From the NCBI RefSeq assembly GCF_057098645.1, contig NZ_CM169472.1: a stretch of DNA of 64,000 nt; one strand, 5' to 3'. Positions 12,001 through 15,000 of the stretch are shown piece by piece; the first letter of the stretch is position 1, and each line of letters begins with the position of its first letter. Position numbers: made by a program.

Positions 12001-15000
12001 CCGCTGCAACGGCCGGGTTTGCCAGCGCGAACTGCAGCGCAGCCGCTTTAACGTTCACATTGAAACGTGTGGCAATGGCGTTAATTTGCGCCACTTTCTG
12101 CTGGATGGCCGCAGAGGCTTTCTGATATTCAAAGTGCTCGCCGCCTGCCAGTACGCCAGAGCTGTATGGACCGCCCACAACGATATCCACGTTCTGTTCC
12201 AGTGCTTCTGGCATCAGGCGTTGCAGCGCACGTTCGTGATCCAGCAGGGAATAACGCCCCGCCAGCAGGAACGCATCCGGCTTCGGTTCGTCCAGCGCCA
12301 GCGTCAGTTCGCAAGGTTCGACGCGGTTCACACCCAGTCCCCAGGCTTTAATCACACCTTCGTCACGCAAACGCGTCAGCGCACGAAATGCACCGGTACG
12401 GGCAATGTTGAACTGCTCCAGCCAGCTGTCACCGTAGAAGTCCTGCGCCGGGTCGTGGATCCAGACAATGTCCAGACGGTCTGTTTTCAGGCGTTTCAGG
12501 CTGTCTTCAATCGATCGCAGCGTGGCGTCAGCAGAGTAGTCATTCAGAATTTTGTTTTTCAGGCCGTGTTCGAACAGGCCACCTTTTTCACCGAAATCCC
12601 GTTTTGCCGGATCTTCCATTTCGTCCAGCATGATGCGACCGACTTTGCTACTCAGAACGTATTCATCGCGTGGATACTGAGACAGCGCTTCACCCATGCG
12701 GATTTCAGAAAGGCCAGAGCCGTACAGCGGCGCGGTATCAAAGTAACGCACACCCAGGTTCCAGGCTTCGCTCACGGTGGCGTGGGCCTCTTCTTCCGGA
12801 ATGGCACGGAACATGTTGCCAAGTGGTGCGCCGCCTAAGCCAATTTTGCCGGGGAGTAAATTTTTAATGCTCATAAGATGTCCTCAATTATTCGGTTTGG
12901 GTTAGGGCGTTTTTTTGCTATCGCCCTGTGACGTGGATCACAATACCTTGCGAGGTTGTGACTTGATAGGACATAATTCGTCTGACTTAAGTCCTTTGAG
13001 GTCTAACATGATTGATTTACGCCAACTGAAGTACTTCGTGGTGGTCGCAGAAGAAGAGCACGTGGGACGCGCAGCCGAGCGATTACATATCTCGCAATCG
13101 CCGCTGAGCCGCCAGATTGCACAACTGGAAGAACGACTGGGGCTGACGCTGTTTGAGCGTAATCAGCAGCGCATTCGCCTGACCGCTGATGGACAGACAT
13201 TCCTTGCCGAAACACGTTCGTTGCTGACACACGCCAACCGCCTGGAGTCGTTAGGCAAACGCCTGGGACGGGGGGAAGATGGGGGCTTGTGTATTGGCTA
13301 TATCGAAAACGCCATGCATTCCGGTGTACTTTCTACGGCGTTACGTACGTTACGTGTATCGCGTCCGAATGTGCATATCGCTCTTTACAGCCAACCACCG
13401 GCTACCCAGATTGAAGGCCTGCGCCAGCGCAGTCTCGATTTTTCTCTGGTCGATACGCCGCCCGCCGACAGCGAGCAGGATCTGGAATATATTCAGGTTC
13501 TGGATGATCGAATGTTGTTGGCCTTACCGCAAAATCATCCTCTGGCGCAGGAGGAAAACCTTGTCGCGTCACAACTTGGCGATGAGCAGTGGATTGCGGT
13601 GATTCATAACGACGATGCGCATTCTCGCGATCATTTTGTCGCCGCCTGTGTTAACGCCGGGTTTAATCCTGATATTCGCCTGGAAGCGGGTGAACCCCTC
13701 ACGGCATTAGGTCTGGTCGCTGCGGGATTAGGTCTGGCCTTAATTCAACATAGTCTGCGTCATAATGCGCCGGAAGGGGTGGTATTACGTGAATTGCCGT
13801 GGATGAATTATTCAACGCAATTATGGGCAGCCTGGCATAAAGCCAACCAACGTCCGCTGGTTTCCCATTTCCGCCAGATCCTGCGCGGTGAATAAAACGT
13901 TAAGCGGGAACCATGAGTTCCCGCTTGATTTGAGATGTCAGTCCGCATCTGAGCTAATACACTTAAAGAGAATTCTGCCTTTTCGGGGACTCATCATTTA
14001 ACTAATGCCGGATGCGATGCTGGCGCGCCGCACCCGGCATTTTACGCATTACTTCGCAATACGCTTGTACTTGATACGCTTCGGCTCCAGCGCGTCTGCG
14101 CCCAGCGTGCGTTTTTTGTACTCTTCGTATTCGGTAAAGTTACCTTCGAAGAACTCAACTTTACCTTCATCCTGGTAGTCCAGGATGTGCGTGGCGATAC
14201 GGTCGAGGAACCAACGGTCGTGCGAGATAACCATCGCACAGCCCGGGAACTCCAGCAGGGCGTTTTCCAGCGCGCGCAGGGTTTCGATATCCAGGTCGTT
14301 GGTTGGTTCGTCGAGCAGCAGCATGTTGCCGCCAACCTGCAGCAGCTTCGCCAGATGCAGACGACCGCGCTCACCACCGGAAAGTTCACCAACGCGTTTA
14401 CCCTGATCAACCCCTTTAAAGTTAAAGCGGCCAACGTAGGCGCGGCTTGGCATCTCGGTGTTGCCGATCTTCATAATATCCAGCCCGCCGGAAACTTCTT
14501 CCCAAACGGTTTTGCTGTTATCCATTGAGTCACGGAACTGATCAACCGACGCCAGTTTCACCGTTTCACCCAAAGTGATGGTGCCGCTGTCCGGCTGTTC
14601 CTGACCAGAGATCATACGGAACAGGGTCGATTTACCCGCACCGTTCGGACCGATGATCCCGACGATCGCCCCTTTCGGGATCGAGAAGCTCAGGTCATCA
14701 ATCAGCAGGCGATCGCCGTAGGATTTACGCAGGTTGCTGACTTCCAGCACTTTATCGCCCAGACGCGGTCCAGGTGGAATAAACAGTTCGTTGGTTTCGT
14801 TACGTTTCTGGTATTCGGTGCTGTTCAGCTCTTCAAAGCGTGCCAGACGTGCTTTACCTTTCGACTGGCGGCCTTTAGTTCCCTGACGTACCCACTCCAG
14901 CTCTTTCTCGATCGACTTACGACGCGCCGCTTCTTGTGAAGCTTCCTGCGCCAGACGCTGATCTTTCTGCTCCAGCCAGGAGGAGTAGTTACCTTCCCAC

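What the first reader, a model, noticed from the sequence alone, without database searches (positions are those of the whole stretch)
12927..12942. Perfect TGTGA-N6-TCACA palindrome in the LysR / AKR divergent promoter region
The 133 bp divergent spacer contains tgtgacgtggatcaca. This matches both consensus half-sites of the CRP site class, and also fits the T-N11-A architecture of LysR-type boxes. A perfect palindrome of this class in a short divergent promoter is unlikely to be fortuitous and suggests catabolite and/or autoregulatory control of the islet.
Basis: seen in the sequence. Interest (0 to 1): 0.4.

Follow-up and report, generated by a model that had tools for sequence, protein, structure and literature searches.

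The report
CRP-type operator on an acquired promoter
The perfect TGTGA-N6-TCACA palindrome is real and looks like a genuine binding site for the sugar-starvation regulator CRP, but it sits on the start point of the neighbouring reductase operon's promoter, so it probably switches that horizontally acquired operon off rather than on, and it is not the LysR regulator's own binding site.

Summary
TGTGACGTGGATCACA lies at 12927-12942 in the 133-bp spacer between an aldo/keto reductase (AKR) operon and a divergent LysR gene. The genes form an islet between nadR and ettA in E. coli O145, present in 482 of 5426 complete E. coli genomes.

CRP reading: supported. A matrix built from 125 ChIP-seq-bound CRP sites scores the dyad 17.9 of 20.7 bits, above 122 of those 125 sites. 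Both half-sites are invariant in nine alleles of the E. coli/Klebsiella clade, while the central triplet varies freely.

LysR-box reading: rejected.
- No T-N11-A register fits the dyad.
- The dyad is absent from about 30 orthologous LysR-AKR loci (Serratia, Ewingella, Acinetobacter, Pseudomonas, Burkholderiales, Streptomyces), although the regulator's DNA-binding end is almost invariant.
- These loci conserve other elements instead, including a 15-bp dyad AGTCC-N5-GGTCT (12990-13004).

Position: a TAnnnT hexamer on the AKR strand at a fixed offset in 34 of 34 loci marks the AKR -10 (TATTGT, 12945-12940). The AKR start point therefore falls inside the palindrome, at about 12933.

Inferred mechanism: cAMP-CRP occludes this LysR-dependent promoter, giving repression rather than classical activation. 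No binding or expression data exist for this site. It is an ordinary kind of element with an instructive evolutionary history.

The parts
12927..12942 (.). Perfect CRP-type dyad TGTGA-CGTGGA-TCACA (centre 12934.5)
   Evidence: Searches confirm it. It scores 17.9 bits with a matrix from 125 ChIP-seq sites. The half-sites are invariant in 9 clade alleles. The exact 30-mer 12924-12953 is in 477 of 482 E. coli carriers.
12940..12945 (-). Inferred -10 hexamer of the AKR operon promoter (TATTGT); overlaps the right arm of the dyad by 3 bp
   Evidence: A TAnnnT hexamer lies at the same offset from conserved block B in 34 of 34 orthologous loci, from E. coli to Streptomyces. Columns 12940, 12944 and 12945 are invariant.
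12932..12934 (-). Predicted transcription start of the AKR operon (about 7 nt after the -10); lies inside the dyad
   Evidence: Inferred from the -10 position. A leader hairpin starting at +2 to +10 in most lineages supports it. It has not been mapped experimentally.
12963..12968 (-). -35 region of the AKR promoter (TATCAA in E. coli; TGGACA in Streptomyces, TGGACG in Pseudomonas); 17-bp spacer to the -10
   Evidence: Reverse complement of conserved block B. It is poor in E. coli (2 of 6 matches), which suits an activator-dependent promoter.
12948..12977 (+). Predicted sigma-70 promoter of the LysR gene: TTGCGA-18-CATAAT; start about 12984, so the dyad centre is at about -49.5
   Evidence: Promoter scan. 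CATAAT and TTGC are conserved in the proteobacterial loci.
12958..12977 (.). Conserved block B (GAC-N7-GAC, consensus GACcGTCCAAGACATAAT): candidate activation-site half of the LysR operator, over the AKR -35
   Evidence: Mean information 1.37 bits per position over 28 loci.
12990..13004 (.). Family-wide conserved 15-bp dyad AGTCC-N5-GGTCT (centre 12997): candidate LysR recognition site, 64 bp upstream of the inferred AKR start and over the lysR leader and Shine-Dalgarno
   Evidence: Five symmetric pairs are complementary in 93-100% of 28 loci. Blocks C and D carry 1.3-1.7 bits per position.
12904..12927 (-). Inverted repeat AGGGCG-N12-CGCCCT: hairpin at the 5' end of the predicted AKR leader, abutting the dyad
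   Evidence: The stems differ between lineages but pairing is kept: GGGCG/CGCCC in E. coli, GGGCA/TGCCC in L099, GGGGC/GCCCC in Serratia, GGCAG/CTGCC in Acinetobacter, GGTCA/TGACC in Pseudomonas.
11864..12874 (-). Aldo/keto reductase, first gene of the operon
   Evidence: RefSeq annotation. The closest solved structures are L-galactose dehydrogenases, E = 2e-29. It matches NCBIfam YdjG only weakly.
11047..11844 (-). SDR-family oxidoreductase
10605..11021 (-). SRPBCC (polyketide-cyclase-like) protein
13008..13895 (+). LysR-type regulator, divergent from the AKR operon
   Evidence: Orthologues at 61-91% identity keep the same divergent partner in 23 of 25 distant loci.

Best explanation
The palindrome is a binding site for the cAMP-CRP complex. 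It arose in the E. coli/Klebsiella lineage of a widely transferred module in which a LysR regulator is divergent from an AKR-SDR-SRPBCC operon. It lies on top of the -10 hexamer and start point of the LysR-dependent AKR promoter, centred at about -1.5. When cAMP is high, bound CRP should therefore exclude RNA polymerase and repress the AKR operon.

The LysR protein itself binds elsewhere. Its candidate sites are the conserved dyad AGTCC-N5-GGTCT at 12990-13004, about -64 from the AKR start, and block B over the AKR -35.

Shown: the sequence, its score, its conservation pattern, and its position relative to the conserved promoter elements. Inferred: CRP occupancy (I estimate about 0.85), the exact start point, and the sign of regulation (about 0.6 given binding).
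For: (1) The core is perfect and unique in the window; 0.03 are expected by chance.
(2) A matrix from 125 EAEC 042 ChIP-seq motif instances (Table S2 of PMC12360894) gives 17.9 of 20.7 bits. That exceeds 122 of the 125 bound sites, and the next best position in the window scores 12.7. The ChIP-bound thrA site in the same window scores 9.9. The ChIP-bound gapA site TGTGACGAGCATCACG has nearly the same arms.
(3) In 9 distinct alleles of the dyad clade, 0 of 10 half-site positions vary. In comparison, 3 of 6 central positions and 27 of 52 AKR-proximal spacer positions vary (P about 0.002). There are four different central triplets. The exact 30-mer is in 477 of 482 E. coli carriers.
(4) The dyad is confined to E. 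coli and K. pneumoniae type lineages. No other lineage has a CRP-like site anywhere in its spacer; the best score is 7.1 bits or less.
(5) The AKR -10 is fixed by a TAnnnT hexamer at an identical offset in 34 of 34 loci, which places the start point inside the dyad.
(6) CRP repression by embedding core promoter elements in its site is documented at acquired E. coli promoters: kpsM P2 and the 0536 promoter (PMC12360894).
Against: There are no binding, start-site or expression data for this locus. The two E. coli strains I checked that have published CRP ChIP-seq (H10407, 042) lack the islet.

The flanks are not A/T-rich (CCC on the left). A 22-bp matrix rebuilt from remembered classical sites gives only 11.3 bits. 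That is below the median of those sites (13.1), and five other window positions score at least as high. Perfect half-sites alone do not guarantee strong binding (PMC2504297).

The invariant stretch also covers the AKR -10 and the lysR -35, so part of the conservation of the right arm could reflect promoter function. Only about five independent lineages carry the dyad. CRP is known to bind many sites with no transcriptional effect (PMC12360894).
Confidence: 0.52

Rival explanations
1. CRP binds the dyad, but the effect is neutral or different from simple repression of the AKR operon. For example, it could modulate the lysR promoter, or reshape the LysR-DNA complex through CRP-induced bending.
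For: The sequence evidence for binding is the same as above. CRP binds many sites without effect on transcription (PMC12360894). The site would lie directly next to the inferred LysR footprint at 12958-13005, so the two proteins could interact architecturally.
Against: A bound CRP dimer over the -10 and +1 is hard to reconcile with no effect on that promoter (analogy with kpsM P2). The centre is at about -49.5 from the predicted lysR start. From my own knowledge of Gaston et al. 1990 and Busby & Ebright 1999, that is not one of the positions from which CRP activates (-41.5, -61.5, -72.5 and so on). Selective retention of both arms argues for some function.
Confidence: 0.25
2. The dyad is not a CRP site in vivo. 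Its conservation reflects promoter, initial-transcribed-region or leader constraints, or another unidentified regulator of the E. coli/Klebsiella lineage.
For: The right arm shares 3 bp with the AKR -10. The left arm abuts the leader hairpin. The invariant stretch extends beyond the arms (CCC, CG, AATACCTTGC). The flanks are G+C-rich.
Against: The left arm TGTGA (about +3 to +7) has no known promoter role, yet it is invariant while neighbouring hairpin and loop positions vary. The match to the ChIP-derived CRP matrix is near maximal. I could identify no other regulator with this half-site and spacing; FNR-type and LacI-type patterns fit worse by inspection.
Confidence: 0.12
3. The palindrome is the LysR protein's own (autoregulatory) box.
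For: It lies in a LysR divergent spacer. A direct repeat TGTGACGTG / TGTGACTTG 30 bp apart looked at first like paired subsites.
Against: No T-N11-A register fits. The dyad is absent in all 25 distant loci and in the Serratia, Ewingella and Acinetobacter loci, although residues 1-60 of the regulator are nearly invariant. The columns under the dyad show no conserved symmetry and carry 0.5 bits per position. The repeat's second copy is polymorphic, even within E. coli (TTATGA). A different conserved dyad sits at about -64.
Confidence: 0.03
4. It is a fortuitous palindrome with no function.
For: About 2-3 perfect cores per E. coli genome are expected by chance (extrapolated).
Against: The chance of one falling in this 133-bp spacer is about 6e-5. 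The arms are invariant across lineages in which 44% of the surrounding columns vary.
Confidence: 0.06

Closest known systems
CRP-repressed promoters whose core elements are embedded in the CRP site, e.g. kpsM P2 and the 0536 promoter of EAEC 042 (PMC12360894)
   Same: The half-sites are consensus or near-consensus TGTGA-N6-TCACA. The site overlaps the -10 (kpsM P2) or -35 (0536) of a promoter on horizontally acquired DNA. The expected mechanism is occlusion of RNA polymerase.
   Different: Here the promoter also appears to depend on a divergent LysR-type activator. The site is centred on +1 rather than exactly around the -10. Nothing has been tested experimentally.
Classical CRP activation sites (Class I at -61.5 and further upstream; Class II at -41.5), e.g. 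lac, gal, melAB
   Same: The DNA recognition element and the regulator are the same.
   Different: The centre is at about -1.5 (AKR promoter) and about -49.5 (lysR promoter). Neither is an activating position. I found no usable -10 at the distance a Class II AKR promoter would need: CTAACC / TAACCC in E. coli, and not conserved in Klebsiella.
LysR-type divergent promoter architecture (recognition site near -65, activation site near -35, T-N11-A box; Schell 1993, Maddocks & Oyston 2008, from my own knowledge)
   Same: The locus as a whole fits this architecture. A conserved 15-bp dyad lies at about -64, a conserved block lies over the AKR -35, and the lysR promoter is overlapped, which implies autorepression.
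   Different: The palindrome itself is not part of it. It has the wrong length and symmetry, the wrong position, and it is not conserved together with the regulator.
gapA CRP site TGTGACGAGCATCACG (ChIP-bound and listed as CRP-regulated in Table S2 of PMC12360894)
   Same: The arms are almost identical (TGTGACG...ATCAC).
   Different: The gapA site has one arm mismatch, and it lies 87.5 bp upstream of the start codon in an activating context.

Membership tests
CRP (cAMP receptor protein) DNA site | Two TGTGA pentamers as an inverted repeat separated by 6 bp | tested here: met
   TGTGA-CGTGGA-TCACA at 12927-12942, 10 of 10 core positions. The motif definition is taken from PMC12360894.
CRP (cAMP receptor protein) DNA site | Score within the range of experimentally bound sites | tested here: met
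   It scores 17.9 bits with the matrix from 125 ChIP-seq instances, above 122 of 125. With a 22-bp matrix from remembered classical sites it scores 11.3 bits, which is within their range but below their median.
CRP (cAMP receptor protein) DNA site | A/T-rich, bendable flanks that raise affinity (contributory, not obligatory) | tested here: inconclusive
   The left flank is CCC and the right flank ATA, giving 14 of 22 matches to the 22-bp consensus. Flanks matter for affinity (PMC2504297).
CRP (cAMP receptor protein) DNA site | Selective conservation of the arms relative to the centre and the surroundings in hosts that have CRP | tested here: met
   0 of 10 arm positions vary, against 3 of 6 central and 27 of 52 neighbouring positions. 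The carriers are E. coli and K. pneumoniae.
CRP (cAMP receptor protein) DNA site | Physical binding by cAMP-CRP (EMSA, footprint, ChIP) | not testable with these tools
   Strains with published CRP ChIP-seq (H10407, 042) lack the islet.
CRP-activated Class I / Class II promoter | Site centred near -41.5, -61.5, -72.5 and so on from a start point | tested here: not met
   The centre 12934.5 is about -1.5 from the inferred AKR start and about -49.5 from the predicted lysR start. No conserved -10 exists for a Class II AKR promoter. The start points are predictions.
CRP-repressed promoter by occlusion | CRP site overlapping the -35, -10 or +1 of the target promoter | tested here: met
   The dyad shares 3 bp with the conserved AKR -10 (12940-12945) and covers the predicted +1. 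The sign of regulation is inferred only.
LysR-type regulator box (T-N11-A recognition site) | T-N11-A within an odd-length interrupted dyad | tested here: not met
   No T-N11-A register lies within 12927-12942, and the 16-bp dyad has even length.
LysR-type regulator box (T-N11-A recognition site) | Conserved with the regulator across orthologous loci | tested here: not met
   It is absent in all 25 distant loci and in the Serratia, Ewingella and Acinetobacter loci. It carries 0.5 bits per position and has no conserved symmetry.
LysR-type regulator box (T-N11-A recognition site) | Centred about 65 bp upstream of the regulated start point | tested here: not met
   The palindrome is centred at about -1.5. 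The conserved dyad AGTCC-N5-GGTCT (centre 12997) is the element at about -64.

The most novel reading that the evidence does not exclude
The locus is a datable snapshot of regulatory capture. A LysR-AKR module moves between phyla with its own operator and promoter geometry frozen to the base pair. In the E. coli/Klebsiella lineage only, it acquired a near-optimal CRP operator exactly over the start point of its LysR-activated promoter. The host's global carbon signal can then veto the module's private inducer signal. 'Before' states survive in Serratia, Ewingella and Acinetobacter, and 'after' states in E. coli and Klebsiella.
Probability: 0.4. Interest if true: 0.4.

Novelty: new member of a known kind. 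Interest (0 to 1): 0.3.

Why it matters
If confirmed, this adds an uncharacterised accessory operon, found in about 9% of complete E. coli genomes including EHEC O145, to the CRP regulon as a repressed target. It would be a clean natural example of a host global regulator being layered over a mobile, self-contained LysR circuit. Unusually, the ancestral states without the site are available for comparison. In practice, the analysis supplies precise and testable promoter, operator and start-point coordinates for a module whose function is unknown. It also corrects the idea that the palindrome is the LysR box.

Tried and rejected
(1) T-N11-A / LysR-box reading. I enumerated all T-N11-A registers and tested conservation with the regulator. 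Rejected.

(2) A 'third half-site' TTGTGA at 12956-12961, 30 bp from the first, as part of a tandem CRP or LysR array. Rejected because it is polymorphic (TTATGA) within E. coli and in Klebsiella and L088, and it scores -2.5 bits.

(3) A Class II CRP-dependent AKR promoter with its start near 12893. The required -10 would be CTAACC / TAACCC, and the region is not conserved in Klebsiella, which has a 16-bp insertion. Rejected by inspection.

(4) Class I or II activation of lysR. The centre is at about -49.5 from the only credible promoter, and alternative -10 hexamers were poor. Rejected as unlikely.

(5) Direct experimental evidence. ETEC H10407 and EAEC 042, which have published CRP ChIP-seq, both lack the islet. 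Literature searches for the module found nothing relevant.

(6) A CRP matrix rebuilt from remembered classical sites. I kept it only as a caveat about the flanks and replaced it with a matrix from published ChIP-seq instances.

(7) FNR-type (TTGAT-N4-ATCAA) and LacI-type readings. They fit worse by inspection and I did not pursue them.

(8) One failed call each for bad coordinates and a disallowed search term.
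Full report
**1. Observation**

The window is 100% identical to E. coli O145 str. RM9872. Between nadR (8515-9768) and ettA (14049-15716, minus strand) it carries an islet:
- a DUF1471 gene (10235-10447, minus)
- an SRPBCC gene (10605-11021, minus)
- an SDR gene (11047-11844, minus)
- an aldo/keto reductase, AKR (11864-12874, minus)
- a divergent LysR-type regulator (13008-13895, plus)

The spacer 12875-13007 is 133 bp. TGTGACGTGGATCACA is at 12927-12942. It is the only perfect TGTGA-N6-TCACA in the window, and 0.03 are expected per window by chance. The islet is chromosomal and present in 482 of 5426 complete E. coli genomes. The added remark that the palindrome 'fits T-N11-A' is wrong: no such register lies within it, and a 16-bp even dyad cannot be a symmetric 13-bp box.

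**2. Is it the LysR protein's box?**

The regulator has orthologues at 61-91% identity in Klebsiella, Serratia, Ewingella, Acinetobacter, Pseudomonas, Burkholderiales and Streptomyces. Its first 60 residues or so, the DNA-binding end, are almost invariant. The divergent partner AKR-(SDR)-SRPBCC is kept in 23 of 25 distant loci.

None of these 25 loci has TGTGA-N6-TCACA, or even GTGA-N6-TCAC, upstream of lysR. A gap-free, anchored alignment of 28 distinct spacers shows base-pair-fixed spacing from the AKR promoter to the lysR start codon. Information is high in the lysR-proximal blocks:
- block B, consensus GACcGTCCAAGACATAAT: 1.37 bits per position
- block C, ACTTGAGTCC: 1.69 bits per position
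- the palindrome columns: only 0.51 bits per position

The palindrome columns show no conserved symmetry. A 15-bp dyad AGTCC-N5-GGTCT (12990-13004, centre 12997) is complementary in 93-100% of loci. The 'third half-site' TTGTGA (12956-12961) is polymorphic even within E. coli. The LysR-box reading is therefore rejected.

**3. Where are the promoters?**

On the AKR strand, a TAnnnT hexamer occurs at exactly the same offset from block B in 34 of 34 loci. Examples are TATTGT in E. coli, TATATT in Ewingella and Acinetobacter, TAGGAT in Pseudomonas, and TAGCCT or TAACGT in Streptomyces. Its three defining positions are invariant columns. Seventeen bp upstream lies the reverse complement of block B: TGGACA in Streptomyces, TGGACG in Pseudomonas, and a degenerate TATCAA in E. 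coli.

This is the AKR promoter. In the window the -10 is 12945-12940, the -35 is 12968-12963, and the predicted start is about 12933. Two independent features fit this assignment:
- The conserved 15-bp dyad is centred 64 bp upstream of that start and block B lies over the -35. This is the canonical recognition-site and activation-site layout of LysR-type activators (established knowledge: Schell 1993; Maddocks & Oyston 2008).
- A hairpin begins at +2 to +10 of the predicted leader in most lineages. The stem sequences differ and include compensatory changes, such as GGGCG/CGCCC in E. coli against GGGCA/TGCCC in L099.

The lysR promoter is TTGCGA-18-CATAAT (12948-12977) and is conserved in the proteobacterial loci. 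Its start is about 12984.

Relative to these promoters, the palindrome (centre 12934.5) spans about -9 to +7 of the AKR promoter and shares 3 bp with its -10. It is centred at about -49.5 of the lysR promoter.

**4. Is it a CRP site?**

I built a symmetrised 16-bp matrix from 125 motif instances under CRP ChIP-seq peaks in EAEC 042 (Table S2 of PMC12360894). Scores with this matrix:

| Sequence | Score (bits) |
|---|---|
| Window dyad | 17.9 (maximum possible 20.7) |
| Klebsiella L082 / L099 version | 17.7 |
| L104 / L105 version | 16.75 |
| L088 version | 16.65 |
| Next best position in the window | 12.7 |
| thrA site in the window (26903-26918), ChIP-bound in EAEC | 9.9 |
| Aligned Ewingella sequence | -0.4 |
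| Aligned Serratia sequence | -0.9 |

The window dyad scores above 122 of the 125 bound sites. The ChIP-bound gapA site, TGTGACGAGCATCACG, has nearly the same arms.

There are caveats. The flanks are not A/T-rich (CCC / ATA), and the site matches 14 of 22 positions of the long consensus. A 22-bp matrix rebuilt from remembered classical sites gives 11.3 bits, which is below the median of those sites, and five other window positions score at least as high. In vitro selection work shows that perfect half-sites without favourable flanks can be among the weaker binders (PMC2504297).

**5. Evolutionary footprint**

The dyad occurs only in the clade whose LysR is at least 91% identical to the window's. 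That clade comprises five sampled E. coli spacer alleles, L088, Klebsiella L082, L099, and L104/L105. The protein cluster names E. coli and K. pneumoniae as carriers.

Across nine distinct alleles, 0 of 10 half-site positions vary. Three of the six central positions vary, with four different triplets (TGG, GAG, GAA, CTG). In the AKR-proximal spacer, 27 of 52 positions vary. The hypergeometric P is about 0.002, not corrected for phylogeny. The exact 30-mer 12924-12953 is present in 477 of the 482 E. coli carriers.

Lineages without the dyad have no CRP-like site anywhere in their spacer. This includes CRP-bearing Serratia (best 1.6 bits) and Ewingella (2.6 bits); the best score in any such lineage is 7.1 bits. 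The site is therefore a derived gain, under constraint, in Enterobacteriaceae. Part of the right arm's conservation could be due to the overlapping -10. That does not explain the left arm.

**6. Mechanism**

The best-supported reading is that cAMP-CRP binds the dyad and occludes the -10 and start point of the LysR-activated AKR promoter. The operon would then be repressed when cAMP is high. Two experimentally dissected precedents exist on acquired E. coli DNA (PMC12360894):
- the 0536 promoter, where the site straddles the -35

Classical activation is geometrically unsupported. No Class II -10 exists for the AKR operon, and -49.5 is not an activating position for lysR (own knowledge: Gaston et al. 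1990; Busby & Ebright 1999).

What is shown: the sequence, the score, the conservation, and the relative geometry. What is inferred: occupancy, the exact start points, and the sign of control.

My estimates are binding about 0.85, repression given binding about 0.6, and about 0.5 for the whole statement. The rivals are: binding with a neutral or different effect (0.25); constraint unrelated to CRP (0.12); a fortuitous palindrome (0.06); a LysR box (0.03).

**7. Function of the operon**

The function is unknown. The AKR's closest solved relatives are plant L-galactose dehydrogenases, which are aldose-1-dehydrogenase-type AKRs (E = 2e-29). It matches no NCBIfam equivalog. A link between carbon status and a sugar or carbonyl oxidoreductase operon is plausible but remains speculative.

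**8. Novelty and verdict**

This is a new, untested instance of a very well-known element, in a known (repressive) configuration. Its interest lies in two things. First, 'before' and 'after' states of regulatory capture of a mobile LysR module are both available. Second, the analysis yields precise, testable coordinates. Interest 0.3; novelty: new member of a known kind.

Noticed in passing
window 12904-12927 (minus-strand RNA); equivalent positions in L082-L106 and L002-L026: A hairpin sits at the very 5' end of the predicted AKR leader. Its stem sequence differs between lineages while pairing is kept, including a compensatory G-C to A-T change between E. coli and L099. Within E. coli, some alleles break one pair. 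It may be an mRNA-stabilising 5' stem-loop or a further regulatory element.
   Followed up: partly
window 12958-13007; loci L002-L026: The LysR-AKR module keeps its operator and promoter geometry fixed to the base pair. The distance from block B to the lysR ATG is 35 bp in 30 of 34 loci, across Gammaproteobacteria, Betaproteobacteria and Streptomyces. The proteins are 61-75% identical, which implies wide and fairly recent horizontal transfer of an uncharacterised regulatory unit.
   Followed up: partly
window 26903-26918: ATTGACTTAGGTCACT upstream of thrA is identical to a motif under a CRP ChIP-seq peak in EAEC 042 (Table S2 of PMC12360894). I used it only as an internal calibrator (9.9 bits).
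   Followed up: no
window about 9770-14050: The islet lies between nadR and ettA. Islet-free strains (H10407, 042) carry only a truncated nadS remnant there. The window has an annotated gene fragment at about 10040-10153. I did not examine the insertion boundaries or the mechanism of insertion.
   Followed up: no
L010 (Pseudomonas izuensis), spacer upstream of lysR: A roughly 100-bp insertion in the AKR leader forms a long, nearly perfect hairpin (minimum free energy -73 kcal/mol, z = -6.8). It looks like a REP- or MITE-type element inserted between the promoter and the AKR start codon.
   Followed up: no
window 52827-52842 and 12317-12332: These are the next-best CRP-matrix matches in the window: TGTGACTACTATCAAA (12.7 bits) and, inside the AKR coding region, TTCGACGCGGTTCACA (10.5 bits). 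I did not examine their context.
   Followed up: no
L012, L016 (Burkholderia): In these two loci the AKR (and SRPBCC) genes lie downstream of lysR on the opposite strand rather than divergent from it, so the module has been rearranged there.
   Followed up: no
L014 (Variovorax), at the columns aligned with the window's palindrome: A different perfect palindrome, TGACGTCA, occupies the same place next to the AKR -10. This hints that the position downstream of the -10 may be a recurrent landing place for lineage-specific operators.
   Followed up: no
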